A stretch of DNA of 64,000 bases from Gammaproteobacteria bacterium. GTDB lineage: Bacteria > Pseudomonadota > Gammaproteobacteria > CAJXQU01. The DNA lies in the NCBI GenBank assembly GCA_026984775.1, contig JALSRM010000069.1, positions 28,939 through 92,938 on the forward strand, given 5' to 3'. Below the pieces are notes generated by a model. It saw nothing but the letters and a program-made list of their open reading frames with translations. It was not told where the DNA came from and did no database searches. Below are positions 1-51,754 of this stretch, in pieces; position 1 is the stretch's first letter; each line of letters starts with the position of its first letter. A program made the position numbers and the translations under genes.

Positions 1-173
1 AAACCTGCGGCAACTGGATGACGGCTATTGCTGTCTTGATCCACTCCAGGCACATGAACTCTGGTCAGCCACTGGCAGCAGAAATGCAAAGAAAGTACTC
101 GAAAGAATGACGGGGTCATCCCTGATCATGCAGGGAGATAACGCGATCCATTGATCAGGTCAAGGAGCCCCCG

Positions 174-1997
174 ATGAGTGAAACAACCGCCCGATGGGAC
201 GAACATGATCCCGATCAGGAAGAACTTGGATTCAGAACAGCAAGTTTTGTTCAAAACGATCTGCTCCTTTCGCTGATCTATTTTGGGCTTATCCTGTTCC
301 TTCCACTGATCCTTTGGAATCATGTAGATGACTATGTTATTTTTCTCTGGCAGGTCGGCATGTTTACCATCTCGGCCATTCGCTGGCTATGCCGCTATAC
401 CATTACCAGTGGGAAAAAGGATAGGACCACTGATGACTTCTGGAACGGTGTTCTTATCTTTCTAACATTGATGGATGGGCTAGGTTGGGGCATTGGCGGT
501 GCCCTGCTCTTCCCCGCAGACTCGATCCTTTCCATGAGCCTGGTTGCACTTCTGCTGATAGGTATTGGTGGGGTAGGTGCTGTCTCTTATTCCGCGAGAA
601 TGTTGATCGCCATCCCCTACCTTTTATGTACCGTGTTGCCGTATATCACCCGTCTCTATGCTACAGGTGGTAATGAAGAGTTTTTGCTTGCCAGCATGCT
701 GGGGTTATTGACCATCATGTTCAGTTTTGCTGCCGATCGGCTGAGCCTGACATTGGGCACTGCACTTCAAATCGATGAACAAGATGAAGAAACCATCTTC
801 GCCCTGGAATCACAAAATGAACACCTCAGTAACATGGTTGAACGGAAAAGAAATCATGTGGCCCATCTTGAAAACGAGCTCACTAACATCACACATGAAC
901 TCGAGAAGGTTCATGGTGTCGTCACCAAACATGAAAAGGACTTGAGTCTTGTATGTGGCCGTATGATCAACCATCTAAACGATCTTGAAACGCTGAAACA
1001 GACATCACTTAACGATGATCAGAGCAAAGTGCTGGTTCGTATGGAAAAAAATGTTCGTTTTCTACTTGAGAGGTTGGGAGAAGATGAAATTGAGGAGGAA
1101 AACACACCCCAAGCTGTTAGTGGTCATGAACCCGCTTACGATAAGGATGAAGCATCTAATTCTCCAGTAGTATTGATTGTAGAGCCTGATAGCCATGAAC
1201 GTGAAAAAATCGAGGCATGCCTGCAAGAACTGAACCTGGACTACACCAGTGTAGAGGATGTCCCTGCTGCTCTATCGGCTCTGTGTCAAGCAGAAGACCA
1301 TTTCGGGTATGAACTCATCATTGCCAGTCTGTACATGCCGGAAATGGATGGAATCGGCTTTGCGGAATGCCTGAAGGATGATCAGGAATTTCAGAGTATC
1401 CGCACCATTCTGACCTATAGCGACAAGCTGCCAAGCAAGAACCGACTGATAAAGGCCGGTGTTGACTGGGTAGTACAAAAAGAGACTCTGAAAGAAGATC
1501 TACCACAGGCCATTGAGAGTCTTGTCAACGGAGAAAGACTTTCACAATTGCCCGCATCTATTGAATCCCTGGTTGAAGATACCATCCAGATATCACTCCC
1601 GCCTGATGAGCAGGAACCAATAACTGCCCCATCATCTGTAGACAAATCTGTACTCGAAGGACTTCGATCATCAACTACCCTCAATTTTATCGAGATCGTC
1701 AACGACTTTCTGGAAGATGCGCCACGATTGATCAGCGAAGCCAGAGAAACCCTATCAAAAAATGACCTTCCAGGTTTGCAAAGATCCATCAGGGAACTGG
1801 GCAATCGCAGTCTGCATATAGGGGCTAACGATCTTGCAGATTTGGCCATGTCGGTTGAATCCGCGATTACCGAAAATGGGATAGACAGAGTGCCTGGCAT
1901 GCTGCAGATGATCGAAGCGGAATTCATCCAAGTCGAGTCAGTACTGCTGGGTGAACTGACCAATGGCGCCCTTGTATCTGACCCGTTTAAACACTGA
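174..1997 (+). CDS. Membrane-anchored signalling protein: polytopic N-terminal sensor-like domain, coiled coil, degenerate receiver (REC) domain and HPt-like C-terminal domain; no kinase domain
   Basis: 607-aa ORF with AAGGAG Shine-Dalgarno just upstream of the ATG. The N-terminal ~190 aa are hydrophobic (motif LMDGLGWGIGG). A heptad-like coiled-coil segment follows. The REC-like block is VVLIVEPDS...ELIIASLYMPEMDG...ILTYSD...VVQKE. The C-terminal block IVNDFLEDAP...GLQRSIRELGNRSLHIGANDLADLAMSVE has the HPt layout. Confidence 0.8.
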   Translation: MSETTARWDEHDPDQEELGFRTASFVQNDLLLSLIYFGLILFLPLILWNHVDDYVIFLWQVGMFTISAIRWLCRYTITSGKKDRTTDDFWNGVLIFLTLMDGLGWGIGGALLFPADSILSMSLVALLLIGIGGVGAVSYSARMLIAIPYLLCTVLPYITRLYATGGNEEFLLASMLGLLTIMFSFAADRLSLTLGTALQIDEQDEETIFALESQNEHLSNMVERKRNHVAHLENELTNITHELEKVHGVVTKHEKDLSLVCGRMINHLNDLETLKQTSLNDDQSKVLVRMEKNVRFLLERLGEDEIEEENTPQAVSGHEPAYDKDEASNSPVVLIVEPDSHEREKIEACLQELNLDYTSVEDVPAALSALCQAEDHFGYELIIASLYMPEMDGIGFAECLKDDQEFQSIRTILTYSDKLPSKNRLIKAGVDWVVQKETLKEDLPQAIESLVNGERLSQLPASIESLVEDTIQISLPPDEQEPITAPSSVDKSVLEGLRSSTTLNFIEIVNDFLEDAPRLISEARETLSKNDLPGLQRSIRELGNRSLHIGANDLADLAMSVESAITENGIDRVPGMLQMIEAEFIQVESVLLGELTNGALVSDPFKH

Positions 1998-2015: not shown

Positions 2016-4775
2016 ATGAAGATAAATGGCCAGGAAATCGAACAGGAATATAATGAATCATTCCTGCTCAAAGAGGAGTTGATGAAAAATACGCTTCTGT
2101 ATTTTTTATTTTCTGGTCTGCTTGCAATTTTTATCTATGCAGTCTTGCAAGATCAGAAAATCAATGCACTGCTGCAACCCTGGTTGATCTGCATTGAGGC
2201 AAATACTGCTGTATTGATCATTTTCCATCACTATTTTCGCCGAAAGAGAAAGAATCCATTTCACAGTATATTTTTCTCCATTGGATTTATTATTGATGGG
2301 CTGTTCTGGGGAAGCCTGGGAGTCCTGCTACCGGGGAACATACCTCCAGAAGCACACGTACTCATTATTATGTCGCTGGCAGCTTTTGTTGCACTGGGAA
2401 TACCCCTGATTACCTCCACTTCCTGGCTGGTGGGTATATTCCCTAGTGCAGTATTTTTGCCATCCATATTTTATTATCTTACTGATCTCAACCCTTTATC
2501 GGTCGGTAATGGGCTTGTTATTGCTTCAATTATTCCTGTCATACTCAGAATCACCCGACTCATCCGTGATAACAAATCGCGATCGGACTCACTGGTAAAG
2601 AAACACCAATGGTTGATCAAACAACTCAATGAATTCGTTGAAAGAACAGAGCTGGCCAACCTTGAGCTAAAGAAAGAAATTGCCGAAAGAGAAAAAACCG
2701 AGATCGAACTCCGAAAAGCAAAAGAAGAAGCCGAAGCCGCAGCCAAAGCAAAAAGTGAATTTCTCGCCACTATGAGTCATGAAATACGGACCCCCATGAA
2801 TGGCATCCTTGGCATGGCAGAGCTGCTGATAAAAACTGAACTCAACAGCAAACAGAAACGTTTCGCTGAAACAATACACAAATCCGGTAACGCTTTGTTG
2901 ACGATCATCAACGATATCCTCGATTTCTCAAAGATTGAAGCCGGTAAACTCGAACTCAATACCCGTGTCTTCGACCTGCGACTATTGATCGAAGATATAG
3001 GTGTCATGTTTGCGGAACAGGCCCACCGAAAAGGTTTGGAACTGATCTGTAACTACCCTGCAGATGGCCACTCCATGTTCCGTGGGGATGCTGAGAGAAT
3101 AAGACAGATCCTGGTTAACCTGATTGGTAATGCACTCAAGTTCACAGAAAAAGGTGAGATTCAGCTCAAGGTAGAGCTGTTTGAAAAGAAGGGCAACATT
3201 TTTCTGATCCGTTTCAGAGTTCGGGACACGGGTATTGGTATTTTGCCTGAAGTCCAGGAAAAAATATTCGAATCGTTCTCCCAGGCAGACAGCTCTACGA
3301 CACGTAAGTTTGGCGGTACAGGACTCGGACTGACCATCTGCAAGAAACTGACACAATTAATGAAAGGTACAATAGGCGTGAAAAGTAAACCGGGAAAGGG
3401 ATCGGTCTTCTGGTTTGCTATTCCATTGAAAAAAGAGGCTGATGTTAAACAACCCCTATCCAGACAGGATCTCAAGGGTATTCGTATACTGATTGCTGAC
3501 AGTAATAAAACCAACCGGGAAATTCTTGAACAACAATTTACCAGTTGGGGTATGGATTATTATTCAACCGATAGTGCAAGAACGACACTCCGTGTACTTC
3601 ATAATGCCCAAAAACAAGGCTTCCCCTTCCAACTCGCAATTCTGGACAATCAGCTAAAGGATTTGGATGGTGTAAGTCTCGCACGAAAGATCAAAAATAG
3701 CCCCGACATTGCCGACACCAAACTCATTATGCTGAGCTCTGTTGGCAATATGGAACAGACTGGACAGTGGTTGATGGCAGGTATCGAAAGCTATCTAAAC
3801 AAGCCGATCAGACAAAATGAACTTTACCAGACACTGTTGAATACCATTGACTCTGAGGGATTGAAAAATGATTCCTTTGAGGAGGATCAAATAAATAAGG
3901 AAGAACAAGAAGTTGTCAATCTGAAAGGGCATGTTCTTGTCGCAGAAGACAACCTGGTCAATCAGGAACTGGTCCGGGAGATGTTATCACAACTTGGTTG
4001 TTCAGCCGAGATCGTAGATAACGGACGCAAGGCGGTTGAGGTGCTCACAGAACACTCGCTGGATAATCTGCACAAACCTTTTGATCTCGTCCTGATGGAT
4101 TGTCAGATGCCGGAAATGGATGGTTTTGAGGCCACCCAAAATATCCGACAGTGGGAATCAAGGCAAAAAATTGTACAACGAATACCCATTATCGCACTGA
4201 CCGCCAACGCTATGGAAGGTGATAGAGAGAGATGTCTTGAATCCGGCATGGATGATTACATGACGAAACCTTTTAATCTCGATCAGCTAGGTGCGCTGTT
4301 GCATCAGTGGCTACCACTGTTGGCAAGGGAAAATAACAGTGAATATGTACATAAGATGAATAAAACCTCAACAGAGACGTTCAATGAAGCTGCCGAGGAG
4401 TCTCGTAACGTTGCCCAACTGAATCCTGATGCTCTGAATAACATCCGCAAACAACAGCGGGGAGGGCAGCCCAATATTCTCACCAGAGTGATCCGATTAT
4501 TCCTGGAAAACTCCCAGAAGACCATTCAAGCTCTTGAGACAGCCATCTCCAACGGAGATCCGGTAGCCCTGCAACGAAATGCGTACAGTCTTCGATCCAG
4601 TTGCTCTACCGTCGGTGCAACAGCACTTGCTGAAATTTGTTCAGAACTCGAAACACTAGGCAAGGCAGAAAATGTTGATGAGGCCCAAACACAGTTGAGT
4701 GTACTCGAGTTTGAATATGATGCTGTGTGTATGGCATTGAACAACATTATCAATAGCGAGTTGGAATCTGTATGA
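2016..4775 (+). CDS. Hybrid sensor histidine kinase: membrane N-terminal domain, HisKA, HATPase_c, two REC domains, C-terminal HPt-like domain
   Basis: 919-aa ORF. The H-box ATMSHEIRTPMNGILGMAELL and N/G-box motifs (NLIGNALKFT, RDTGIGI, GGTGLGL) are present. REC1 is IRILIADSN...LAILDNQLKDLDG...LNKP. REC2 is HVLVAEDN...LVLMDCQMPEMDG...MTKPF. The C-terminal block IRLFLENSQ...ALQRNAYSLRSSCSTVGATALAEICSELE is HPt-like. A better SD (AGAGGAG) precedes an in-frame ATG at 2082, so the true start may be 2082. Confidence 0.88.
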   Translation: MKINGQEIEQEYNESFLLKEELMKNTLLYFLFSGLLAIFIYAVLQDQKINALLQPWLICIEANTAVLIIFHHYFRRKRKNPFHSIFFSIGFIIDGLFWGSLGVLLPGNIPPEAHVLIIMSLAAFVALGIPLITSTSWLVGIFPSAVFLPSIFYYLTDLNPLSVGNGLVIASIIPVILRITRLIRDNKSRSDSLVKKHQWLIKQLNEFVERTELANLELKKEIAEREKTEIELRKAKEEAEAAAKAKSEFLATMSHEIRTPMNGILGMAELLIKTELNSKQKRFAETIHKSGNALLTIINDILDFSKIEAGKLELNTRVFDLRLLIEDIGVMFAEQAHRKGLELICNYPADGHSMFRGDAERIRQILVNLIGNALKFTEKGEIQLKVELFEKKGNIFLIRFRVRDTGIGILPEVQEKIFESFSQADSSTTRKFGGTGLGLTICKKLTQLMKGTIGVKSKPGKGSVFWFAIPLKKEADVKQPLSRQDLKGIRILIADSNKTNREILEQQFTSWGMDYYSTDSARTTLRVLHNAQKQGFPFQLAILDNQLKDLDGVSLARKIKNSPDIADTKLIMLSSVGNMEQTGQWLMAGIESYLNKPIRQNELYQTLLNTIDSEGLKNDSFEEDQINKEEQEVVNLKGHVLVAEDNLVNQELVREMLSQLGCSAEIVDNGRKAVEVLTEHSLDNLHKPFDLVLMDCQMPEMDGFEATQNIRQWESRQKIVQRIPIIALTANAMEGDRERCLESGMDDYMTKPFNLDQLGALLHQWLPLLARENNSEYVHKMNKTSTETFNEAAEESRNVAQLNPDALNNIRKQQRGGQPNILTRVIRLFLENSQKTIQALETAISNGDPVALQRNAYSLRSSCSTVGATALAEICSELETLGKAENVDEAQTQLSVLEFEYDAVCMALNNIINSELESV

Positions 4776-4877: not shown

Positions 4878-7061
4878 ATGTTACCTGTCAATGAAGAAAA
4901 AAATAGCCCTTTAATACTCGTCATCGATGATGATGTCACGATCCGTTTCATGATCAATGAAACTCTCGAGACACTAGGGTTCATCGTTGAAGAGGCTGAA
5001 AATGGTATCCAGGGGATTGAACGTGCTAGGGAGCTGAAGCCAGATATCATACTTCTTGATGTGATGATGCCGGAAATGGATGGGTTCACCGCCTGTCCAC
5101 AGATCCGGGAGATACCACACTGCAGACACACACCTGTTTTGATGATGACTGGGCTGGATGATATCGAATCAATCAACAAGGCCTATCAGGTCGGTGCTAC
5201 TGACTTTGCAACCAAACCACTGAATTATACTCTCTTGTCACATCGCCTCCTCTACATGTTACGTTCGAAACAGACAGCTGATGAATTACGTGCAAATCAG
5301 GAAAAACTCGATCATGCACAACGACTGGCCAAACTTGGCTACTGGGAATGGGATCTAAACAATTTTGTTACCTGGTCTGAACAGGTAACAGAAACTTTCT
5401 GGCTCCCCAAAGGCAAGACCTGCGGTGAACTCTCCTACTTCTTTCAGAACCTTCACAAAAAAGACATGGAGAAAGTCCGGGCGGCACTAAAACTGGCCAA
5501 GGAAAAAGAGCAAAATTTCAGTTTGGAATATCGCATCCGAAATCGCGAAGGGAAAGTCCGTATTATCTTTCACGAGGCAAAGGTGAATTACAATGAAGGT
5601 AGAAAACCTATCAGCCTGATTGGAACCATACAAGACATTACTGAACGCAAACGTGCAGAATATGAGATCCAGAAGCTGGCTAATTATGACAAGGTCACGG
5701 GGCTCCCAAACAGAACTTCGCTACGCCAGAAGCTTGAAAAAATTATTGCCAGAGCACCTTCCAGTCAACAAGTAACTGCCATCTTGACGCTCGATCTCGA
5801 TCATTTCAAACGTCTCAACGACACCCTTGGCCATCAGGCAGGAGATCAACTCCTGCGAAAAATTGCCTCCCGCCTGAATGAATTTATTGAAAATAGTGCA
5901 TACGGTTCCGTTGATCTAACCTCGACCAGATTGCAACAGAAAAAGCATGCTCTTGAATTGACACTCTCTCATTTCGGAGGCGATGAATTTGTTATTCTGA
6001 TCGATGGAGCTCCTACAATTGAAAATGTGGCTTCAATTGCACGAAAGCTTAATGAGATCATCGCTGAACCTATCGATTTAGACGGCAATGTTATCTCAAT
6101 GACAGCGAGTATCGGCATTAGCGCCTGGCCTGAAGACGGTAAGGATGTTGATACCCTCCTCAAGCAAAGCGGCTCCGCTCTATACCATGCAAAAAGCGAA
6201 GGCAGGAACTGCTACAAGTTTTTCACCGCAGCCATGAATGCACGCGCTTTTGAGCGTTTGTCTCTGGAAATCAATTTGCGCAAGGCAATCGAAAAAGAGC
6301 AATTCATGTTGTTCTATCAACCAAAAGTAGATGCCCTTTCTGGGAGTATATTGGGTATGGAGGCATTGATCCGATGGAAGCATCCTGAACTTGGCATGAT
6401 ATCTCCGGCGGATTTTATTCCTGTTGCGGAACAGACAGGAATGATCATTCCAATTGGCCAATGGATCTTCGAAGAAGCCTGCCGTTTCCTGAATAAGATT
6501 GAAGAACACAATCTCCCACCTCTTACTGTAGCCCTCAATCTTTCCGGTGCTCAATTTACACAGAAAGGGCTCCCTGAGGAGCTTGGCAATAGTGTTGCCA
6601 AGGCGGGTATCGCCCCTCAGCAGATTGAACTCGAGATCACTGAAAGTCTGTTGATGGAAAATATCGAAGAAGCTATCAAAATCATGAACCGGCTACGAGA
6701 GATCGGGTTTTCAATTGCAATCGATGATTTCGGAACCGGGTATTCCTCTCTCTCGTATCTAAAACGCTTTCCGGCAGCAACTTTGAAAATTGATCAATCG
6801 TTCATTCGTGATATCGACAAGGATGCCGATGATCGCTCTATTGTTCAAGCCATCATCACGCTGGCACACAGCCTGCGCCTCAAAGTGGTTGCCGAAGGCA
6901 TAGAAAAACGCGAACAACTCGCCGTGCTGAGAGAACAGGGCTGCGATCTTATTCAGGGCTATTACTACAGCCACCCCCTCTGTTGCGAAGATTTTCTGGA
7001 CTGGATTAGCAACCGCGAAGACGATCCTGTTGACGAACTTGAAGCGACCATGGCTATATAA
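4878..7061 (+). CDS. Response regulator with REC-PAS-GGDEF-EAL architecture (diguanylate cyclase/phosphodiesterase)
   Basis: 727-aa ORF. The receiver is LILVIDDD...IILLDVMMPEMDG...MMTG...ATKPL. A PAS-like segment follows. GGDEF motifs are RLNDTLGHQAGD and HFGGDEFVIL. EAL motifs are EALIRW, QPKVD, DDFGTGYSSLSYL, KIDQSF and EGIE. Confidence 0.9.
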   Translation: MLPVNEEKNSPLILVIDDDVTIRFMINETLETLGFIVEEAENGIQGIERARELKPDIILLDVMMPEMDGFTACPQIREIPHCRHTPVLMMTGLDDIESINKAYQVGATDFATKPLNYTLLSHRLLYMLRSKQTADELRANQEKLDHAQRLAKLGYWEWDLNNFVTWSEQVTETFWLPKGKTCGELSYFFQNLHKKDMEKVRAALKLAKEKEQNFSLEYRIRNREGKVRIIFHEAKVNYNEGRKPISLIGTIQDITERKRAEYEIQKLANYDKVTGLPNRTSLRQKLEKIIARAPSSQQVTAILTLDLDHFKRLNDTLGHQAGDQLLRKIASRLNEFIENSAYGSVDLTSTRLQQKKHALELTLSHFGGDEFVILIDGAPTIENVASIARKLNEIIAEPIDLDGNVISMTASIGISAWPEDGKDVDTLLKQSGSALYHAKSEGRNCYKFFTAAMNARAFERLSLEINLRKAIEKEQFMLFYQPKVDALSGSILGMEALIRWKHPELGMISPADFIPVAEQTGMIIPIGQWIFEEACRFLNKIEEHNLPPLTVALNLSGAQFTQKGLPEELGNSVAKAGIAPQQIELEITESLLMENIEEAIKIMNRLREIGFSIAIDDFGTGYSSLSYLKRFPAATLKIDQSFIRDIDKDADDRSIVQAIITLAHSLRLKVVAEGIEKREQLAVLREQGCDLIQGYYYSHPLCCEDFLDWISNREDDPVDELEATMAI

Positions 7062-7830: not shown

Positions 7831-9009
7831 CTATTTTGACTTAGGACTTCCCTGCCCGTTTTTCATCAGCACTTCGGGGCTGGTACCTGAAGGTAATACC
7901 GATGGTTTATTCTGAGCTTCCTTTTGAGTTGAAATATCCGGCTTTTTACCTTTTTCAATGATCAGCTCATCAAGAGAGCGGCGCAACATTTTGCCCTTGT
8001 AGGCAGGCAGTGCATAGACCCAACCACTGGTTTTTCTGCCAAGTATTTCGGCCTGTTCTTTTGCGGAGGGTTTTTTACTCTTGTTGTCTTTTCCTTCAGA
8101 TCCGGACGATGTCTCCTCTCCCTTGTAATCAAAAGAAAATTCTGCCCAGACCTGATCATCGATCTTTGCAGATTTTACCTTCATCACCAGTCCATCAAAA
8201 GTTTCATAAACCGTAGTCAGGGTTTGGTCCGGCCATTTGAAACTCTTTGCACTGTTGACATCATTGAATTGGAGATCTTCGACCACTGATGCGAGGCTGT
8301 TGACAGTAGTCTGGGAGCGAACTTCATATCCTTCTGGAATATTCTGCAACACATAGTCAACATCATCCTTCTCCTTGCGACTGACCCGTACGGTCTTATC
8401 ACCACCATGTTCAATGGTAATGCTTTTCAACCTGTCTGACGCCAGATCGATGAGACTGTTATCCATCCATTCAACAGGCTCATCAGAAAGAACGACTTTG
8501 CCTTTAACAAGATAGGACTGCTTCTCACCGGCTCTACGCACATAGATAGAGTCGACTGTGCCGTCTGAACGGTTGACACGCTCCTTGCCAATCAAGAGAG
8601 AGGCAAGAATATTTCCATCTTTATCCATCAAGGTTACTTGTCTGGACTTCGCTTTTTTGCTCGTGACATCTTCAACCTGTAGTCGGGAATACAACGCTGG
8701 ATTGGCCGTCTTGGCCTCACGAATTTCGAGTTTACTGATGGCTATCACCAAAGGCTTGATACGATTGACAAGTGCCGGATAGCCACCGCGATTTTTCACT
8801 ACCCACTTGTCCCCCAGCTTCTCCAAGGTAACTGTGTTCTTGCCGGTTTTTATCTCGACGCTCGTAATCTGCTGGATTTGATCTGCCAGTTGAGGAAAAA
8901 GTGGTTCTTTTTCCATCACGGTTTCAGGTGAGCGGTGCTGGACTGAAAACCACGCCGCGATTACAAATAACAGCGTAATAATGGCAAATATAGATAATGA
9001 TTTTTTCAT
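7831..9009 (-). CDS. DUF4340-family protein (partner of GldG-like ABC auxiliary component); N-terminal signal/anchor
   Basis: 392-aa ORF with N-terminal hydrophobic helix MKKSLSIFAIITLLFVIAAW. It is the last gene of the ATPase-permease-GldG operon, the position DUF4340 proteins typically occupy. Confidence 0.6.
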   Translation of the reverse strand: MKKSLSIFAIITLLFVIAAWFSVQHRSPETVMEKEPLFPQLADQIQQITSVEIKTGKNTVTLEKLGDKWVVKNRGGYPALVNRIKPLVIAISKLEIREAKTANPALYSRLQVEDVTSKKAKSRQVTLMDKDGNILASLLIGKERVNRSDGTVDSIYVRRAGEKQSYLVKGKVVLSDEPVEWMDNSLIDLASDRLKSITIEHGGDKTVRVSRKEKDDVDYVLQNIPEGYEVRSQTTVNSLASVVEDLQFNDVNSAKSFKWPDQTLTTVYETFDGLVMKVKSAKIDDQVWAEFSFDYKGEETSSGSEGKDNKSKKPSAKEQAEILGRKTSGWVYALPAYKGKMLRRSLDELIIEKGKKPDISTQKEAQNKPSVLPSGTSPEVLMKNGQGSPKSK

Positions 9010-9012
9010 GGT

Positions 9013-10884
9013 TTATCTACGTGCTTTCCGTTTCATTCTGTTGAACAGTGCCATACCAATCGCCAGCAGGCCGATCAGAATTGGTATCAAGCCAATATTG
9101 TAAAACTTCAACCTGTTACCAAGTTGTTCAATACTTTTGTTGAGATCATGTTGGACATTTCGTAATTCCTTGCGTGTCTTGATCTGCTCCTGTTGGAAGT
9201 TTTCGATCGCCTTGCGTTGTTCGGGACTGAGCAAAACACCACCTTTCTCGGAACTCTGGAACTGCAGCTGGCTGATCTTCTCTTCGGTTTCCTTTAGCTT
9301 GGCTTGAAGGGCCTGTTCTCGTGCACGAAACTTCTTCTCGGCTTCCAGTTTTAATTCCTCGACCTTGGTGAACGGTCGTGCATACTGACTGCGACTACGC
9401 AAACTGATCAAATCCTTATTACCACCCAGAACATCGATACTGTTAAGCAAGAATTTCGCATTGTCAGCATGCGGACGTGGCACCCGTTGTCCCATAAAAT
9501 TCTGGAATTGCACCCAGAAGCGATCAGTAAGAATATCAGTATCTGCCACCACGACGATATTGATATCCTCTTTTGACTCCTGGACAAAGGTTGGATCCTT
9601 TTCATCGGACGCAGGCCGTCCTTCTGGATAGGCGGTCTCCACCTTGCCTGTGATTCGTGCAGCAATCACCAGTTCCTTGCCACCCGGTTTGAACTGATCT
9701 ACGAGTACCGAAGGATCCCGTACAAACATAATCGCATCCCTTTCGTAGGGCATGGATTTTTTACTGGTAAAGATCAGTGGTGTAAACGTTGTCTTGGCAT
9801 CTTTCACAGGTTCAAGAAAGCCAGCCGTACCAAGATTGATCAACTGGAGCTGGTTGGTTGAGAAATCATCTTTGTTGAAATGTTCCGGCCCCAGTCTCAA
9901 CCAGGGAATATAGGCAATTTCCTTCGGCCCACGTGGATTTCTTGACTGGACTCTGATCGAGGCATCAAGATCGCCTGCAATTTTTTCTGGATTGAATTCG
10001 ATACCCCATTTATCAAACAGTACTGGCATTTCTGAAAAAATCTGAGGCATGACCATCTGGTTGGTTGGATCGGGCATGGTTTGGTCCGATTCTGCCATGG
10101 GATCGACAAAGATCATCGCCTTTCCACCCTTGAGAATGAACTGGTCGATGGCGTAGAGGGTTTTATCCTTGAGTTTCTTCGGGTGAATCACCAGCAAGGT
10201 ATCGATCTCGGGCTCGATGTAACCTACCCTGACGCCAAGATCTCGCACCTGATATTCACTGCGAAGCATGTCGATAACCGCCCAGGCAGATGAGACTGGA
10301 CGTCCATCCGGCCCATTCTGGCCAAAAACTGGCAGACTGCTGATCACACCGATCACCCGATCTTTCGGATTGGCGAGTTGATAGACCATCTTGGTCAGAT
10401 CATATTCCAGCGACTGTTCCTTTTCCGGCTGAAAAAAGGGAATCGTGATCTCGTCATCCGTGGTGTTGGTACCAACCAGGCCGAAATAGGCATGTTCTCC
10501 ATTACCTCCCATCGGAAGAGGGTGCAGCCCATAACTAACAGCCTCATCTTCAAGATCAGAAAAGGGTTCTGGTTCTGCTACGATCAGCTTTATTTTGCCA
10601 TTTGCAGCTTTTGTGTATTCCTCCAGCATGTCACGCACCCGCGTACCATAGTTCCTCAGGGTTGGAATATCGTTGAGCAACTTGTTGGAAAAATAAAAAC
10701 GCAGTGTGATGGGTTCTTTCAGATCATGGAGAATGTTCTGCGTTCCCTTGGACAGGGTAAACAGTTTGTTCTCAGTCATATCCAACCGCCAGGACGTCAA
10801 TGTGCCACTGACAAGAATGTTAACCGCGAGAAATAGTACTATCGCAAGTCCGAGACTGATTAATGTGATGACCTTCTTACTCAT
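9013..10884 (-). CDS. GldG-like ABC-transport auxiliary component (ABC_transp_aux family)
   Basis: 623-aa ORF with N-terminal and C-terminal TM helices and a large periplasmic domain. It lies immediately downstream of the ABC-2 permease with a 4-nt gap. Confidence 0.65.
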   Translation of the reverse strand: MSKKVITLISLGLAIVLFLAVNILVSGTLTSWRLDMTENKLFTLSKGTQNILHDLKEPITLRFYFSNKLLNDIPTLRNYGTRVRDMLEEYTKAANGKIKLIVAEPEPFSDLEDEAVSYGLHPLPMGGNGEHAYFGLVGTNTTDDEITIPFFQPEKEQSLEYDLTKMVYQLANPKDRVIGVISSLPVFGQNGPDGRPVSSAWAVIDMLRSEYQVRDLGVRVGYIEPEIDTLLVIHPKKLKDKTLYAIDQFILKGGKAMIFVDPMAESDQTMPDPTNQMVMPQIFSEMPVLFDKWGIEFNPEKIAGDLDASIRVQSRNPRGPKEIAYIPWLRLGPEHFNKDDFSTNQLQLINLGTAGFLEPVKDAKTTFTPLIFTSKKSMPYERDAIMFVRDPSVLVDQFKPGGKELVIAARITGKVETAYPEGRPASDEKDPTFVQESKEDINIVVVADTDILTDRFWVQFQNFMGQRVPRPHADNAKFLLNSIDVLGGNKDLISLRSRSQYARPFTKVEELKLEAEKKFRAREQALQAKLKETEEKISQLQFQSSEKGGVLLSPEQRKAIENFQQEQIKTRKELRNVQHDLNKSIEQLGNRLKFYNIGLIPILIGLLAIGMALFNRMKRKARR

Positions 10885-10887
10885 GGT

Positions 10888-11637
10888 TTAACTTGCCTTC
10901 TTAGTATCGATTGCGAGCGTATTGAGATACAGCCACAGTATGATCAACGATGCAAAAAAGATGATGTCGCGGAGATCGATCACCCCTTTCATGATGGAAT
11001 TGAAATGGCTCAGAAAACTGAACGAACTGATCGCATCCAGTATGGACTGAGGTGCCCAGCCACGGAAGAAATCCAGTACCAGTGGGAACCCGCTGAGAAT
11101 AAACAGAAAACAGATCACAACACTGATAACAAAGGCAATTACCTGATTTTTCGTCAGTGCAGAGATACAGGAACCAATGGCGAGAAAACCACCTGCCATC
11201 AACAGACTGCCGATATAGCTGACCAAAATGACCGTGTTATCAGGATCACCGAGGTAATTGACTGTGATCCAAATGGGAAATGTAAGCGCCAAGGCAATCG
11301 CGGTAAAGAACCATGCAGCAAGATATTTTCCAATTACTGCCTCGGTCAAAGTGACGGGTAGAGTCATCAGCAGTTCAATCGTCCCAGTCTTGCGTTCTTC
11401 TGACCACAAGCGCATGGAAATCGCTGGAATAAGAAACAGGTAGAGCCACGGATGAAAGCTGAAGAACGGGATCAAATCCGCCTGATTGCTTTCGTAAAAA
11501 CCACCGATATAAAAAGTAAAGATACCGGTCAGAAAAAGAAAAATTACAATAAAAACATAAGCAACGGGGGTTGAGAAATAGGCCTTGAGCTCACGCCTGA
11601 AAATGGCCCCAACATTGTTCAAGAAAGAACTGCTCAT
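10888..11637 (-). CDS. ABC-2 family transporter permease (GldF-like)
   Basis: 249-aa polytopic membrane protein with six predicted TM segments. Its start overlaps the stop of the upstream ATPase gene. Confidence 0.75.
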   Translation of the reverse strand: MSSSFLNNVGAIFRRELKAYFSTPVAYVFIVIFLFLTGIFTFYIGGFYESNQADLIPFFSFHPWLYLFLIPAISMRLWSEERKTGTIELLMTLPVTLTEAVIGKYLAAWFFTAIALALTFPIWITVNYLGDPDNTVILVSYIGSLLMAGGFLAIGSCISALTKNQVIAFVISVVICFLFILSGFPLVLDFFRGWAPQSILDAISSFSFLSHFNSIMKGVIDLRDIIFFASLIILWLYLNTLAIDTKKAS

Positions 11638-12611
11638 GTCAGATGCTCCTCTTCTGTCAGTTTATCCGGCGCTCCGATGGTGACGTCCCGGAATACCTCG
11701 TCAATACGGCCCGTTTCAACCATCAATTGACTGATCTCCCAACCCTTCTCATGTGCCAAATCACTGATGGTTGCAACGATACTCTGCCCATCCTTCGGGA
11801 TGATCAGCAGTTGTGACAAACCGGCAGGCAATTCTTCGATCTCTACTGACAATACACTGGGGAGGTCTAAAAGCACCATCCGTGCAGCTTCACATTGCCC
11901 TGTATTCATTACCAACGCTACTGCATTGTGGTATTTCGATTTCGCGATCAGTTCAGTCGGAGTTCCGTCAAACAACAGTTTGCCCTTGGCTATAATGATG
12001 GCACGATCACAAACGGCATCGACCTCTTCGAGAATGTGAGTGGAGATGATAATCGCCTTGTCTTTTGCCATTTCCTTGATCAGTGTTCTAACTTCGTGCT
12101 TCTGATTGGGATCAAGCCCATCCGTTGGCTCGTCCATGATCAGGACTTCTGGATCGTGAAGTATGGCCTGGGCCATGCCTACCCTTCGCTTAAAGCCTTT
12201 TGAAAGCGTCTCGATCGGCTGTTCCATCACTCCTTCAATATGGATTTTCTTCACCACATCATCGATCCGCTCCTTCCGGTTACTCCCTTTGAGACCACGA
12301 ATATCCGCAATGAAATTGAGAAAGGAACGCGGTGTCATTTCTCCGTAGGCAGGTGCACCCTCCGGCAGATAACCCAAGACCCGTTTTGCTGCGATTGGCT
12401 CTTCACGAACGTCATGACCACACAGGCTAACCGTCCCCCGGGTTGGTTCGAGAAAACCAGTGATCATTTTCATGGTTGTCGATTTACCGGCACCGTTAGG
12501 GCCCAAAAAGCCGAGAACCTCACCACGCCTGACGGTGAAGGAAACATTGTCCACCGCACGTAGTGAACCGAAATCCTTGACAAGATTATTAACTTCTATC
12601 GCATTTTCCAT
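11634..12611 (-). CDS. ABC transporter ATP-binding protein (GldA-like)
   Basis: Walker A GPNGAGKST, signature LSKGFKRRVGMAQAI, Walker B LIMDEPTDGLD. 325 aa. Confidence 0.9.
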   Translation of the reverse strand: MENAIEVNNLVKDFGSLRAVDNVSFTVRRGEVLGFLGPNGAGKSTTMKMITGFLEPTRGTVSLCGHDVREEPIAAKRVLGYLPEGAPAYGEMTPRSFLNFIADIRGLKGSNRKERIDDVVKKIHIEGVMEQPIETLSKGFKRRVGMAQAILHDPEVLIMDEPTDGLDPNQKHEVRTLIKEMAKDKAIIISTHILEEVDAVCDRAIIIAKGKLLFDGTPTELIAKSKYHNAVALVMNTGQCEAARMVLLDLPSVLSVEIEELPAGLSQLLIIPKDGQSIVATISDLAHEKGWEISQLMVETGRIDEVFRDVTIGAPDKLTEEEHLT

Positions 12612-42991: not shown

Positions 42992-44181
42992 TCACTCAAT
43001 AATCTTGGAAACAACACCCGCTCCAACAGTCCGGCCACCTTCACGAATCGCAAAGCGTAGCCCTTCTTCCATCGCAATCGGAGCAATCAGTTTGACGGTC
43101 ATCTTCACGTTGTCCCCCGGCATCACCATTTCAGTCCCTTCAGGAAGCTCCACCGCACCCGTCACGTCCGTCGTCCGAAAGTAAAATTGGGGACGGTAGT
43201 TGTTGAAAAAGGGAGTGTGACGTCCGCCTTCGTCTTTCGAAAGAACGTAAACTTCCGCTTCAAAGTGAGTGTGCGGCTTGATCGTCCCAGGCTGCGCCAA
43301 AACCTGTCCGCGCTCCACTTCGTCTCGCTTGGTCCCCCGGAGCAAAACGCCTACGTTGTCTCCCGCCTGACCTTCGTCAAGAAGTTTGCGGAACATCTCT
43401 ACACCCGTGCAGGTGGTGGTCTGGGTTTCACGAATACCCACTATCTCCACTTCGTCTCCTACGTGAATTACGCCCCGCTCAATTCGCCCCGTCACTACCG
43501 TGCCTCGGCCCGATATGGAGAATACGTCTTCTATCGGCATGATAAAGGTCCCATCCACTGCACGTTCCGGATCCGGAATGTAGCTGTCCAGCGCAGCCAC
43601 CAGCTTGTCTATGCTCTGCGTCCCTATTTCGCTGTCGTCGCCTTCCAGCGCCTTCAGTGCAGAGCCGATAATGACCGGGGTGTCGTCGCCAGGAAAGTCG
43701 TAGCTGTCCAGAAGTTCGCGGATCTCCATCTCCACCAGTTCCAGTAGTTCTTCGTCATCCACCATGTCGGCCTTGTTCATGTACACAATGATGTAGGGTA
43801 CACCTACCTGACGAGAAAGAAGAATGTGTTCCCGCGTCTGAGGCATCGGGCCATCCGCCGCCGATACCACCAGTATCGCTCCGTCCATCTGCGCCGCACC
43901 CGTGATCATGTTCTTCACGTAGTCCGCATGTCCCGGACAGTCAACATGAGCATAGTGGCGTTTCTCGCTCTCGTATTCCACGTGCGCAGTCGCGATGGTT
44001 ATCCCTCGCTCTCGCTCTTCCGGGGCGTTGTCTATCTGGTCGTAGGCTTTCGATTCTCCACCAAATTTCTGCGCCTGATGCGTCGTGATCGCCGCCGTCA
44101 GGGTCGTCTTACCATGGTCTACATGACCAATTGTGCCGACATTCACATGTGGTTTGCTTCGTTCAAATTTTTCCTTGGACA
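42992..44181 (-). repeat. 1.19-kb segment duplicated at 59619-60808 (tufA/tufB coding sequences), apparently identical
   Basis: Identical six-frame translations across several overlapping frames (43187-43747 = 59814-60374, 43826-44233 = 60453-60845 except the final residues) and identical flanking 3' codons. Divergence begins at the first base of the start codon and at the base after the stop codon. Confidence 0.85.
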
Positions 44182-44182
44182 C
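42992..44182 (-). CDS. tufA: Elongation factor Tu (copy 1, str-operon copy)
   Basis: [33 protein letters not shown]... 396 aa. GTG start (plus-strand CAC at 44180-44182) preceded by AAGGGG SD. Last gene after fusA. Confidence 0.97.
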
Positions 44183-46334: not shown

Positions 46335-46355
46335 AATCTGCTTCCCCTTTCCCTC

Positions 46356-46826
46356 TTACCAGCGGAAATGAGAGAATGCCCTATTTGCCTCTGCCATTCT
46401 GTGTGTATCTTCCTTCTTCTTGACAGCCGCCCCTCGATTTTCATAGGCATCCATCAATTCTCCAGCTATCCGTAGACCCATGGTCTTCTCACCACGTTTG
46501 CGTGCCGCTTCAACCAACCAGCGCATCGCCAGTGCGGTACGCCTGTTGGCGCGTACTTCTACAGGCACCTGATATGTGGCACCACCCACACGGCGCGATT
46601 TCACTTCAACCTTAGGCCGGATATTGTCAAGTGCCTGGCTAAAGGCTTCCAGAGGATCGTTCATGCCTTTTTCTTTCATTTGGTCAAGTGCACCATAGAC
46701 AATCTTTTCGGCAATAGACTTCTTGCCATCTTTCATTACCATATTGACGAACTTGGCCAGTGTTTCGTCTCCGAACTTTGGATCAGGGAGTATAGTTCTC
46801 TTAGCAGCAACTCTTCTTCTGGACAT
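46356..46826 (-). CDS. rpsG: 30S ribosomal protein S7
   Basis: [46 protein letters not shown]... Confidence 0.97.
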
Positions 46827-46867
46827 GTTTTAACCTGATTTTCCGCTTAATTTTATATTTCTCTGAA

Positions 46868-47242
46868 TTACGACTTGGGTCGTTTGGTTCCATACTTGGA
46901 GCGCCCTTTCCTTCTATCAGCAACACCAGCTGTATCAAGCGTACCGCGAACAGTATGGTATCGAACACCGGGCAAGTCCTTGACACGACCGCCTCGTATA
47001 AGAATAACCGAGTGTTCCTGTAGATTATGCCCTTCACCACCAATATAAGTGGTAACTTCATAACCGTTTGTCAATCTTACACGGGCAACCTTTCTCATTG
47101 CAGAGTTAGGTTTTTTTGGCGTAGTCGTATATACGCGAGTACAAACGCCTCTTCTCTGCGGACAGCTTTCCAGAGCAGGAACCTTGCTCTTAGCCCTCTG
47201 GCGCTTACGCGGTTTTCTAACCAGCTGGTTTATTGTTGCCAT
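46868..47242 (-). CDS. rpsL: 30S ribosomal protein S12
   Basis: [52 protein letters not shown]... Confidence 0.97.
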
Positions 47243-47341
47243 GCAAATAACTTCCTCAATCTATATGTCTCTTACAAAAAACCATATAGCCTAAAAAAAA
47301 CTAACCACCGAAATGATGATGTGTTTACACCTTTTCGATGG

Positions 47342-47381
47342 TCTGAAAAAAATGACAGACTTGGCAAAAGCCAAGCCTGTC
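47342..47381 (-). terminator. Rho-independent terminator downstream of rpoC
   Basis: On the minus strand: GACAGGCTTGGC tttt GCCAAGTCTGTC (12-bp stem with one mismatch) followed by ATTTTTTTCAGA. Confidence 0.7.
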
Positions 47382-47485
47382 AATAAAGAGGCGGAATTGT
47401 ATTTTCCTTACCGCAACCTGTCAAGGCCAAAGATGATCTTTTTTAGGTAAACACCGAATGTTTCAATGCCCCTGCTATCTCTTCT

Positions 47486-51727: not shown

Positions 51728-51754
51728 GATACTGCCTCCAGTTTGAGGGCTAAA

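What the first reader, a model, noticed from the sequence alone, without database searches (positions are those of the whole stretch)
1326..1793. ORF1 carries a pseudo-receiver (Asp->Ser) and an HPt-like domain lacking the phospho-histidine (His->Arg)
Aligning by eye to the canonical receivers next door:
- DLVLMDCQMPEMDG in ORF2 REC2
- DIILLDVMMPEMDG in ORF3
- ELIIASLYMPEMDG in ORF1
The ORF1 receiver has Ser (codon 1326-1328) where the phospho-acceptor Asp should be. Its acidic pocket reads EPD instead of DD/ED.
Its C-terminal HPt-like block is GLQRSIRELGNRS-LHIGA. In the consensus la-H-tLKG-saa-lGa, the His position is occupied by Arg (codon 1791-1793).
The protein therefore keeps the folds of a relay module but apparently none of the phosphorylatable residues. 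This is the pattern expected of a scaffold/decoy or of a regulator working through binding rather than phosphotransfer.
Basis: seen in the sequence. Interest (0 to 1): 0.65.

Follow-up and report, generated by a model that had tools for sequence, protein, structure and literature searches.

The report
Dead sensor-kinase copy beside live kinase
ORF1 is a membrane protein descended from a sensor kinase that has lost its ATP-using domain and all three phosphate-carrying residues, and it sits in a conserved operon next to a working kinase whose own phosphotransfer domain has also lost its histidine, so it most likely regulates by binding rather than by passing phosphate.

Summary
Profile and structure-based alignments place Ser385 (nt 1326-1328) on the receiver's phospho-Asp and Arg540 (nt 1791-1793) on the HPt phospho-His.

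- ORF1 (174-1997) is a derivative of a membrane hybrid histidine kinase. It keeps a six-helix membrane domain and a DHp-like hairpin without a conserved His. It has no ATPase domain, one pseudo-receiver and one His-less HPt.
- The family is small, about 17 sequences, all from Gammaproteobacteria MAGs or unnamed metagenome contigs. The dead sites hold family-wide: Asp is replaced by N/K/S/T (one member keeps D) and His by R/K/S/Q.
- The gene always lies in the order 189-aa ORF, ORF1, hybrid kinase ORF2, REC-PAS-GGDEF-EAL ORF3.
- ORF2's own HPt has Tyr857 (Thr in one ortholog) instead of His in all 18 orthologs. All 15 more distant relatives examined keep His.
- A syntenic outgroup locus keeps His and has no ORF1.
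- Outgroup kinases' membrane domains resemble ORF1's more than ORF2's.

Best reading: ORF1 is a non-catalytic sensing and regulatory partner of ORF2 that controls c-di-GMP output.

Caveat: an invariant, probably exposed His548 lies eight residues after the canonical site, so an RcsD-like relay is not excluded.

This is a new variant of a known kind, of moderate interest.

The parts
1..153 (+). 3' end of a conserved 189-aa ORF of unknown function that always precedes ORF1; it is cut off by the window edge
   Evidence: The full ORF is seen in L004 (translation). It is conserved in L001, L002, L005, L010 and L011, and as a 173-aa form in the outgroup locus L012. No precomputed Pfam hit is on record for it.
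174..1997 (+). ORF1, 607 aa: a catalytically dead derivative of a membrane hybrid histidine kinase
210..767 (+). Membrane domain, about six helices (aa 13-198), with the motif DGLGWG...FPADS
   Evidence: AF2 helices span aa 13-198. The region is colinear with the N-terminal membrane domain of hybrid kinases. Outgroup kinases match it better than they match ORF2's membrane domain.
777..1079 (+). DHp-like helical hairpin (aa 202-302): long helix 202-275, turn, helix 281-302
   Evidence: AF2 pLDDT is about 75-86. The family HMM aligns aa 43-308 colinearly through the HisKA domain of kinases P0021, P0022, P0023 and P0028. Pfam HisKA itself does not hit, and hhalign against ORF2's DHp alone is not significant.
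945..950 (+). Codons S258-L259, where the kinase phospho-His (SHEIRTP) falls in the HMM alignment
   Evidence: One search gives the alignment. The column 258 residues are S,H,H,H,Y,F,Y,N,Y,H,Y,H,H,D, so there is no conserved His, and the E/DxxT/N phosphatase motif is absent.
1170..1517 (+). Pseudo-receiver (aspartate-less receiver), aa 333-448
   Evidence: Pfam PF00072 E 9e-11. hhalign to ORF2 REC1 gives 99.4% probability. The AF2 confidence for this part is low, pLDDT 45-69.
1182..1187 (+). E337-P338 at the acidic-pocket positions (CheY D12, D13)
   Evidence: Most homologs keep D/N-D here.
1326..1328 (+). Ser385 at the phospho-acceptor Asp position
   Evidence: The family column reads S,K,N,K,N,N,N,N,N,N,S,D,N,N.
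1416..1418 (+). Tyr415 at the conserved Thr/Ser position
   Evidence: Homologs mostly have Ser.
1479..1481 (+). Lys436, the one receiver active-site residue that is retained (the following Pro is Glu here)
1548..1601 (+). Conserved linker motif LPASIEsLvdDaIQISLP between the receiver and the HPt
   Evidence: L459 and P460 are invariant and a helix is predicted at aa 461-473. Function unknown.
1644..1973 (+). HPt-like helical bundle (aa 491-600; Pfam Hpt aa 507-583), the most conserved part of ORF1
   Evidence: Pfam hit. AF2 pLDDT is 74-91. Foldseek to HptB 7c1i gives TM 0.90 and rmsd 1.9 A. Mean column identity is 72% against 64% for the whole protein.
1791..1793 (+). Arg540 at the canonical phospho-His position
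   Evidence: The family column is R in 11, K in 2 and S in 1; the more distant members have K, R and Q.
1815..1817 (+). His548, invariant in all 17 family members, eight residues after the canonical site in the motif G-x-R-S-x-H-x-G-A
   Evidence: The equivalent position in solved HPts is S, Y, N or S, all polar.
2016..4775 (+). ORF2, 919 aa: an active-looking hybrid kinase with membrane domain, HisKA (H255, nt 2778-2780), HATPase, REC1 (D544, nt 3645-3647), REC2 (D695, nt 4098-4100) and an HPt-like domain
4584..4586 (+). Tyr857 of ORF2 at the HPt phospho-His position
   Evidence: Alignments to 7c1i and 4pac. It is Tyr in 17 of the 18 orthologs and Thr in 1, while all 15 outgroup kinases read keep His.
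4878..7061 (+). ORF3, 727 aa: canonical receiver (D61, nt 5058-5060), PAS, GGDEF and EAL; the likely output enzyme

Best explanation
ORF1 is a catalytically dead descendant of a membrane-bound hybrid histidine kinase.

Anatomy:
- It keeps the ancestral-type six-helix membrane domain and a DHp-like dimerisation hairpin.
- It has no ATP-binding domain and only one receiver.
- It carries non-phosphorylatable residues at all three relay positions: DHp His is S258/L259, receiver Asp is S385, and HPt His is R540.

Context. It is co-transcribed with an intact hybrid kinase, ORF2, whose own HPt is disabled by His to Tyr. The third gene, ORF3, encodes a receiver-PAS-GGDEF-EAL enzyme.

Proposed mechanism. 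ORF1 is the non-catalytic sensing and regulatory partner of ORF2. Its membrane domain perceives the signal. Its hairpin and membrane domain pair with ORF2 (or with itself). Its receiver-like and HPt-like domains dock on the real receivers, ORF2 REC1/REC2 or ORF3 REC. By binding, it sets how much phosphate ORF2 delivers to ORF3, and so sets c-di-GMP synthesis and breakdown.

Shown: the domain anatomy, the residue identities, family-wide conservation, the operon, and the co-occurrence with loss of His in ORF2.

Inferred: that ORF1 is not phosphorylated, who binds whom, and the sign of the effect.
For: Residue correspondence:
- S385 aligns with the phospho-Asp and R540 with the phospho-His in independent profile alignments.
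- The HPt fold is confirmed.
- The family profile runs colinearly through the membrane domain and HisKA of genuine hybrid kinases, and their phospho-His falls on a non-conserved column.
- There is no HATPase_c hit, and only about 30 residues separate the hairpin from the receiver.

Signs of function despite dead sites:
- The dead sites are fixed across 17 members at 43-52% identity.
- The HPt-like domain is the most conserved part of the protein, with invariant G543, R545, S546, H548, G550 and A551 and the helix FIQVESALL.
- This indicates purifying selection on a function other than phosphotransfer.
- The window's copy has lost further receiver active-site residues (P338, Y415) that other members keep. 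That fits relaxed constraint on the active-site chemistry.

Operon:
- The order 189-aa ORF, ORF1, ORF2, ORF3 is conserved in L001, L002, L005, L010 and L011. L004 holds the first three genes and the start of a fourth.
- Intergenic gaps are short, and ORF1 and ORF2 overlap in L005.

Co-occurrence with the change in ORF2:
- All 18 ORF2 orthologs have Tyr or Thr at the HPt His. All 15 relatives at 45% identity or less keep His.
- The syntenic outgroup locus L012 (glyS-glyQ, 173-aa ORF, kinase, REC-GGDEF-EAL) has no ORF1. L013 also has none.

ORF1 keeps the ancestral sensor:
- Outgroup kinase membrane domains match ORF1's better than ORF2's. P0065 scores 51.5 against 18.2 bits by HMM, and 47.4 against 25.4 bits by BLASTP.
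- This fits a duplicate that kept the sensor while ORF2 kept the catalytic core.

No canonical HPt nearby. A six-frame scan of the 64-kb window finds only these two HPt-like domains.

Precedents for binding-only two-component pseudo-proteins:
- PsmA (PMC12963549).
- The pseudo-receiver review (PMC12632262).
- DivL, RetS and AHP6, from established knowledge.
Against:
- His548 is invariant and probably exposed, so phosphotransfer at a shifted site is not excluded.
- One family member (P0012) has Asp at the acceptor position together with D, S and K. Its receiver could be phosphorylatable.
- Six of 14 members have His at column 258, one position before the column the kinase phospho-His aligns to. 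Those members might be trans-phosphorylated by ORF2.
- The co-occurrence of ORF1 with the loss of His in ORF2 rests on a single clade, that is, on one evolutionary event.
- ORF1's hairpin shows no significant similarity to ORF2's DHp (hhalign probability 3%), so heterodimerisation through that region is uncertain.
- Four outgroup kinases (P0187, P0197, P0200, P0201) do not match ORF1's membrane domain better than ORF2's.
- The receiver part of the AF2 model has low confidence.
- The rest of the genome may encode a separate HPt protein.
Confidence: 0.55

Rival explanations
1. RcsD-like relay with a relocated histidine. ORF1 is a membrane-anchored phosphotransfer protein whose invariant His548, one heptad below the canonical site, accepts phosphate from ORF2 REC2 and passes it to ORF3 REC. 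It would have taken over from ORF2's disabled HPt.
For: - His548 is invariant in 17 of 17 members, while the canonical position varies (R, K, S, Q).
- Position +8 is polar in solved HPts and lies next to a buried +9, so it is probably exposed.
- ORF2's loss of His coincides with the presence of ORF1. That is what a hand-over of the HPt role would look like.
- The architecture parallels RcsC/RcsD: a pseudo-kinase with a C-terminal HPt next to a hybrid kinase without a working HPt (established knowledge; RcsD is mentioned in PMC3842833).
- Without some His, a His-Asp-His-Asp relay to ORF3 is impossible, and no other HPt lies in the window.
Against: - I know of no HPt with a shifted acceptor, and none turned up in the literature searches.
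- A shift of eight residues moves the site about 12 A along the helix and about 80 degrees around it. This follows from helix geometry and was not measured.
- The canonical features around an acceptor His (Lys at +3, Gly at +4) are not recreated around H548.
- The receiver fused to this HPt is itself dead.
- ORF2's His-less HPt is also strongly conserved, which this model does not explain.
Confidence: 0.17
2. Ligand-gated pseudo-receiver. The aspartate-less receiver of ORF1 binds a small molecule, for example c-di-GMP made or degraded by ORF3, as the pseudo-receiver REC1 of Caulobacter ShkA does. This would give feedback on ORF2. It is compatible with the best explanation, as a specific version of it.
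For: - The operon ends in a GGDEF-EAL enzyme with intact GGDEF and EAL motifs.
- ShkA is a precedent: a hybrid kinase with a c-di-GMP-binding pseudo-receiver (bioRxiv 10.1101/675454, abstract).
- The receiver keeps its Lys and, in most members, the DD and Ser residues. The pocket is therefore partly preserved.
Against: - No c-di-GMP-binding motif was identified or tested.
- The window's copy has further degraded the pocket (P338, Y415).
- The receiver is less conserved than the HPt-like domain.
Confidence: 0.1
3. Functionless remnant. ORF1 is a decaying partial duplicate of a kinase gene on its way to being lost.
For: All catalytic residues and the ATPase domain are gone.
Against: - The reading frame is intact at about 590-645 aa in 17 lineages that have diverged to 43-52% identity.
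- There are 86 invariant columns and strongly conserved motifs.
- The operon position is conserved.
Confidence: 0.03
4. Misalignment. The true Asp and His are present and the hand alignment was shifted.
For: None found. D339 lies two residues after the DD1 position, and H548 lies eight residues after the HPt site.
Against: Five independent alignments agree and have no gaps in the motifs: CheY, ORF2 REC1 and REC2, three solved HPts, and ORF2's HPt.
Confidence: 0.01

Closest known systems
RcsD (YojN) of the enterobacterial Rcs phosphorelay
   Same: It is a membrane-anchored kinase-like protein without the DHp histidine and with a C-terminal HPt domain. It works beside a hybrid kinase (RcsC) that has no functional HPt of its own.
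   Different: RcsD's HPt has the phospho-His and transfers phosphate, while ORF1 has Arg there. RcsD keeps a degenerate ATPase-like domain and has no receiver. ORF1 has no ATPase domain and has a pseudo-receiver. No sequence relationship closer than the shared domains was found.
Histidine pseudokinases that act by binding: DivL (Tyr for His), RetS acting on GacS, and PsmA of Streptomyces (PMC12963549)
   Same: These are kinase-derived proteins that have lost phosphorylation chemistry and regulate partners through protein contacts. PsmA has a hybrid-kinase layout and works as a scaffold. DivL shows the same His-to-Tyr change that ORF2's HPt shows.
   Different: Those proteins keep a CA domain, which ORF1 has lost. 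None carries a His-less HPt. DivL's Tyr is in the DHp, not in an HPt. None is known to be paired with a kinase whose HPt is also disabled.
Aspartate-less receivers / pseudo-receivers (review PMC12632262)
   Same: The domain gives a PF00072 hit but lacks the phospho-Asp and, in the window's copy, DD2 and Thr as well. About 2% of bacterial receivers lack the Asp.
   Different: According to the review the most common replacement is Glu, whereas this family has Asn, Lys, Ser or Thr. Here the pseudo-receiver is fused to a membrane sensor, a DHp-like hairpin and a pseudo-HPt.
AHP6-type pseudo-HPt proteins of plants
   Same: These have the HPt fold with the phospho-His replaced (Asn in AHP6). They act by competing for binding in a phosphorelay (established knowledge; the plant literature appears).
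   Different: They are soluble single-domain eukaryotic proteins. In bacteria, 0.9% of Hpt domains lack the His, but I found no functionally studied case in the searched library.
ShkA of Caulobacter (hybrid kinase with a pseudo-receiver REC1 that binds c-di-GMP)
   Same: It has a pseudo-receiver inside a hybrid-kinase framework that is linked to c-di-GMP signalling.
   Different: ShkA is a soluble, active kinase. No c-di-GMP binding site was identified in ORF1.

Membership tests
Response_reg (PF00072) receiver domain | Sequence match above the curated threshold | tested here: met
   42.4 bits against a cut-off of 30.2, aa 333-448, covering the full model 1-111.
Response_reg (PF00072) receiver domain | Phospho-acceptor Asp (CheY D57) | tested here: not met
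   Ser385. The family has N, K, S or T, and D in one member only.
Response_reg (PF00072) receiver domain | Acidic pair (DD), Thr/Ser and Lys | tested here: not met
   E337-P338, Y415, K436. Only DD1 (as Glu) and the Lys are kept in the window's copy. Most homologs keep DD, Ser and Lys-Pro.
Response_reg (PF00072) receiver domain | (beta-alpha)5 fold | tested here: inconclusive
   AF2 predicts alternating strands and helices, but at pLDDT 45-69. Foldseek to CheY gives TM about 0.5.
Aspartate-less receiver / pseudo-receiver (definition of PMC12632262) | [quoted passage not shown] | tested here: met
Hpt (PF01627) domain | Sequence match above the curated threshold | tested here: met
   27.7 bits against a cut-off of 24.6. 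The margin is small. In the homologs the precomputed Pfam annotation lists no Hpt.
Hpt (PF01627) domain | Helical-bundle HPt fold | tested here: met
   AF2 pLDDT 74-91 over aa 491-600. Foldseek to HptB 7c1i gives TM 0.90, rmsd 1.9 A over 114 columns.
Hpt (PF01627) domain | Phospho-accepting His in the H-x-x-K-G motif | tested here: not met
   Arg540, with Gly at +3 and Asn at +4.
Histidine kinase (HisKA + HATPase_c) | DHp domain with a conserved phospho-His (H-box) | tested here: not met
   There is no Pfam HisKA hit. The hairpin aligns colinearly with HisKA of related kinases, but the His column is S/L in the window and is not conserved.
Histidine kinase (HisKA + HATPase_c) | ATP-binding catalytic domain | tested here: not met
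   There is no HATPase_c hit, and there is no room for one between aa 302 and 333.
RcsD-type membrane phosphotransfer protein | Functional HPt His that relays phosphate from a hybrid kinase to a response regulator | tested here: not met
   The canonical His is absent. Whether H548 could substitute cannot be tested with these tools.
RcsD-type membrane phosphotransfer protein | Membrane-anchored kinase-like protein without the DHp His, encoded next to a hybrid kinase | tested here: met
ShkA-type c-di-GMP-binding pseudo-receiver | c-di-GMP binding residues in the pseudo-receiver and linker | not tested
   No alignment to ShkA was made. Binding needs an experiment.

The most novel reading that the evidence does not exclude
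His548 is invariant and lies one heptad below the canonical site. It may be a relocated phospho-acceptor. ORF1 would then be an RcsD-like membrane phosphotransferase that took over the HPt role when ORF2's own HPt changed His to Tyr. That would be the first HPt domain known to use a shifted histidine, and an example of a relay step being handed from one paralog to another.
Probability: 0.15. Interest if true: 0.8.

Novelty: new variant of a known kind. Interest (0 to 1): 0.55.

Why it matters
Pseudo-receivers and histidine pseudokinases are known classes, but how bacterial ones work is mostly unknown. I found no functionally studied bacterial HPt domain without its histidine.

This operon offers a compact natural test case:
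- A live hybrid kinase.
- A dead copy that seems to have kept the ancestral sensor domain.
- Two conserved His-less HPt domains.
- A single c-di-GMP enzyme as readout.
- A close outgroup (L012) that still has the ordinary arrangement, for comparison.

The system could show what an HPt fold does when it cannot carry phosphate, for instance reading or shielding a phosphorylated receiver. It could also show how a four-step relay is rewired after gene duplication.

The practical limit is that all members come from uncultured Gammaproteobacteria MAGs or unnamed metagenome contigs, so the work would need heterologous reconstitution.

Tried and rejected
- **HPt-only search.** A word-indexed search with ORF2's HPt region alone (160 aa) found nothing and cost one search. 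The full-length ORF2 search gave what was needed.
- **Hairpin against ORF2's DHp.** hhalign of ORF1's hairpin against ORF2's DHp alone was not significant (probability 3%). The DHp homology therefore rests on the colinear HMM alignment to other kinases and on the AF2 hairpin, not on similarity to ORF2.
- **ORF1 as a recent copy of ORF2.** I considered this and rejected it. ORF1's profile scores higher on outgroup kinases than on ORF2.
- **dN/dS.** Not attempted, because at 43-52% protein identity synonymous sites are saturated. Conservation of columns was used instead.
- **HPt residues at the receiver interface.** I looked in the Ypd1-Ssk1 structure paper for interface residues at +7 and +8. 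The searched residue labels did not occur in the text.
- **Literature on bacterial His-less HPt.** Searches gave only plant pseudo-HPt papers and the 0.9% statistic.
- **ORF3 receiver helix alpha-1.** Comparing ORF3's receiver helix alpha-1 between clade and outgroup showed differences. These cannot be separated from ordinary divergence.
- **Antisense ORF.** The ORF at 1415-1963 (182 aa) is a shadow of ORF1, with no support.
- **Second structure job and multimer modelling.** Not run. Coordinates are not returned by the tool, so interdomain or interprotein contacts could not have been read.
Full report
**1. The observation**

ORF1 runs from 174 to 1997 on the + strand and encodes 607 aa. Codon 385 (nt 1326-1328, AGT) is Ser and codon 540 (nt 1791-1793, AGG) is Arg.

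Pfam finds a receiver at aa 333-448 (E 9e-11) and an Hpt domain at aa 507-583 (E 3.1e-6). Both are above the curated cut-offs, the Hpt only narrowly.

- Against CheY, 'liiaSlympemdg' lies on 'fviSDwnmpnmdg', so S385 is on D57 and E337/P338 are on D12/D13.
- hhalign of the family profile against ORF2's two receivers (99.4% and 98.6% probability) puts the same column on their Asp.
- A profile of the family's C-terminal domain against solved HPts (3us6, 3myf, 7c1i) aligns without gaps in the motif and puts the R540 column on the phospho-His.
- The AlphaFold model is confident for this domain (pLDDT 74-91). It superposes on P. aeruginosa HptB with TM 0.90 and rmsd 1.9 A.

In the window's copy the Thr/Ser position is Tyr415 and the Lys is kept as K436. 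Three of the five receiver active-site residues are therefore gone.

**2. It is a family trait, not an accident**

The 5.8-billion-protein search found 13 homologs at 43-52% identity. The exhaustive representative search found about five clusters at the 50% level among 1.84 billion representatives, which added three more distant members.

| Position | Residues across the family |
|---|---|
| Receiver Asp | N (8), K (2), S (2), D (1), N; in the distant members T, N, K |
| HPt His | R (11), K (2), S (1); in the distant members K, R, Q |

Most members still have the DD pair, the Ser and Lys-Pro, so the window's copy is the most degraded receiver of the set.

The HPt-like domain is the best conserved part of the protein, at 72% mean column identity against 64% overall. 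G543, R545, S546, H548, G550 and A551 are invariant, and the last helix is almost invariant (FIQVESALL). This is the signature of a domain under selection for something other than carrying phosphate.

For scale, a 2025 survey found the Asp missing in 2.0% of bacterial receivers and the His missing in 0.9% of bacterial Hpt domains (PMC12632262).

**3. What ORF1 is**

After the family itself, the best hits of the family profile are hybrid histidine kinases of 900-1100 aa. They match profile positions 43-308, that is, ORF1's membrane domain plus the following helical region. Their architecture is membrane domain, HisKA, HATPase, REC, REC, Hpt, the same as ORF2.

The HMM alignment runs colinearly through their HisKA domain. 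Their SHEIRTPMN falls on ORF1 columns 258-266 (window: SLVCGRMIN). The phospho-His lands on a column that is not conserved, and the phosphatase motif is absent.

AlphaFold predicts about six membrane helices (aa 13-198). These are followed by a long helix (202-275), a turn and a second helix (281-302), which is a DHp-like hairpin, at pLDDT about 75-86.

There is no HATPase_c hit and no room for such a domain between residues 302 and 333.

ORF1 is therefore a hybrid-kinase derivative that has lost the ATPase domain and one receiver. It has lost the phosphorylatable residue at all three relay positions. Its single receiver is closer to ORF2's REC1 than to REC2 (hhalign scores 123 and 93).

**4. 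The neighbours are not canonical**

ORF2 (2016-4775) has an intact H-box (H255), an ATPase domain, REC2 with all five active-site residues, and REC1 with Ala at the first acidic position.

Its HPt reads NAYSLRSSCSTVGA. Alignments to 7c1i and 4pac put Tyr857 (nt 4584-4586) on the phospho-His. The domain contains no His at all in the window's copy.

All 18 orthologs (the window's ORF2 plus 17 at 55-66% identity) have Tyr there, with Thr in one. All 15 more distant relatives examined (45% identity or less, same architecture) have the usual AAH(S/T)LKSS.

In four orthologs REC1's Asp is Glu.

ORF3 (4878-7061) is a canonical receiver followed by PAS, GGDEF and EAL, with both catalytic motifs intact.

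A six-frame scan of the whole 64-kb window with a canonical-HPt HMM finds only the ORF2 and ORF1 domains. The operon thus has two conserved HPt folds, and neither has the canonical histidine.

**5. Comparative genomics**

The order 189-aa ORF, ORF1, ORF2, ORF3 is kept in every locus long enough to show it: L001, L002, L005, L010 and L011. L004 shows the first three genes and the start of a fourth. Wherever the record names an organism it is a Gammaproteobacteria or 'uncultured proteobacterium' MAG; the other loci are unnamed metagenome contigs.

Locus L012 carries an outgroup kinase, P0065, whose HPt has His. Its surroundings are the same: glyS-glyQ on the opposite strand, then a 173-aa homolog of the small ORF. 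The kinase follows that small ORF directly, and then comes REC-GGDEF-EAL. There is no ORF1. L013, another His-containing relative, also lacks ORF1.

The presence of ORF1 and the loss of His in ORF2 therefore go together. This is one clade and so one evolutionary event.

The membrane domains of P0065 and most other outgroup kinases resemble ORF1's more than ORF2's:

| Outgroup kinase | HMM bits vs ORF1 / vs ORF2 membrane domain | BLASTP bits vs ORF1 / vs ORF2 |
|---|---|---|
| P0065 | 51.5 / 18.2 | 47.4 / 25.4 |
| P0186 | 55.2 / 24.4 | 61.6 / 38.5 |
| P0023 | 53.2 / 19.5 | 56.2 / 29.3 |

Four outgroup kinases are exceptions. ORF2's cytoplasmic part is the ortholog of the outgroup kinases' cytoplasmic part.

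The simplest history is a duplication of the ancestral kinase. One copy (ORF1) then kept the ancestral sensor and lost catalysis. The other (ORF2) kept catalysis, let its membrane domain diverge and lost the HPt histidine.

**6. Mechanism**

I commit to this reading. ORF1 is the non-catalytic sensing and regulatory partner of ORF2. By binding, it controls how much phosphate reaches ORF3's receiver, and so controls c-di-GMP turnover. The binding would be through its membrane domain and hairpin to ORF2, and/or through its receiver-like and HPt-like domains to the real receivers.

The anatomy, residues, conservation, operon and co-occurrence are shown. The absence of phosphorylation, the binding partners and the direction of the effect are inferred.

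Precedents exist for kinase-derived binding regulators: DivL, RetS and RcsD from established knowledge, and PsmA from PMC12963549. AHP6 in plants is a precedent for a pseudo-HPt that competes for binding.

It is also established that an HPt protein can shield a phosphorylated receiver from hydrolysis, as Ypd1 does for Ssk1. A His-less HPt could do this without back-transfer.

**7. The main rival**

His548 is invariant in all 17 members. It lies eight residues after the canonical site, in G-x-R-S-x-H-x-G-A. The equivalent position in solved HPts is S, Y, N or S, next to a buried hydrophobic +9, so it is probably exposed.

An RcsD-like relay through a relocated His would explain why ORF2 could afford to lose its own His. 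I give this about 0.17, for these reasons:
- No shifted HPt acceptor is known.
- The surrounding K/G features are not recreated around H548.
- ORF2's dead HPt is itself strongly conserved.

The other rivals:
- A ligand-binding (c-di-GMP) pseudo-receiver as in ShkA. This is compatible with the main reading and untested.
- A functionless remnant. Intact frames and invariant motifs in 17 diverged lineages contradict it.
- A misalignment. This is refuted.

**8. Novelty and verdict**

Each ingredient is a known kind: pseudo-receiver, pseudokinase, pseudo-HPt. The combination is what I could not find described in the searched literature. That combination is a hybrid-kinase derivative with no ATPase domain and all three relay sites dead, which keeps the ancestral sensor and is fixed in an operon with a live kinase whose HPt has His replaced by Tyr.

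I rate it a new variant of a known kind, with interest about 0.55.

Noticed in passing
window 4584-4586 (ORF2 Tyr857); HPt domain 4488-4727: ORF2's own HPt domain has Tyr at the phospho-His position, and the window's copy has no His anywhere in the domain. All 18 orthologs have Tyr, or Thr in one. All 15 more distant relatives examined keep His.
   Followed up: yes
window 3483-3845 (ORF2 REC1; D544 at 3645-3647): ORF2's first receiver has Ala at the first acidic-pocket position (LIADSN). In four orthologs (P0169, P0178, P0181, P0182) its phospho-Asp is Glu, so REC1 may be drifting towards a pseudo-receiver. REC2 is fully canonical.
   Followed up: partly
window 1-153 (+), full length in L004:560-1129: A conserved 189-aa ORF lies immediately upstream of ORF1 and has no precomputed Pfam hit on record. 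Its N-terminus (MLHTPDTALWHAL) is very conserved. It is present in every ORF1 locus and, as a 173-aa form, in the outgroup locus L012, so it is probably part of the ancestral operon. Function unknown.
   Followed up: partly
window 1992-1994 (H607) and 1548-1601: Two conserved features of ORF1 have no explanation. One is a C-terminal tail ending K/R-H in the 14 closer family members and one distant one (the other distant members end SH, KY or differently). The other is a linker motif LPASIExLxDDxIQISL between the receiver and the HPt.
   Followed up: no
P0012 (ORF1 homolog; its neighbour kinase is P0173): One family member has Asp at the receiver acceptor position together with N-D, Ser and Lys, so its receiver might be phosphorylatable. 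Its HPt still lacks the His (Lys).
   Followed up: no
window 4878-7061 (ORF3): The GGDEF domain is matched by Pfam in two stretches, which suggests an insertion of roughly 20-30 residues. The GGDEF (aa 367) and EAL (aa 495) motifs are intact, and no RxxD inhibitory site is seen five residues before GGDEF.
   Followed up: no
window 7831-12611 (-): A cluster on the opposite strand encodes a DUF4340 protein, an ABC-transporter auxiliary (GldG-like) protein, an ABC-2 permease and an ABC ATPase. It follows ORF3 here and in L001 and L010. In L002 and L011 other genes lie in between.
   Followed up: partly
window 42992-44182 and 59619-60809 (-); 44238-55870 (-); 55953-56003 (-): Judged by ORF length and order, not by a search, this is the standard ribosomal-protein/rpoBC region. 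It has two 396-aa ORFs that look like duplicate EF-Tu genes, a 698-aa ORF (fusA-like), 1413-aa and 1371-aa ORFs (rpoC/rpoB-like) and a cluster of four tRNAs at 59.4-61.4 kb. There is also an Rfam hit to the Pseudomonas sRNA P26, just above its threshold (37.2 against 36 bits). This is a chromosomal context with 47% G+C.
   Followed up: no
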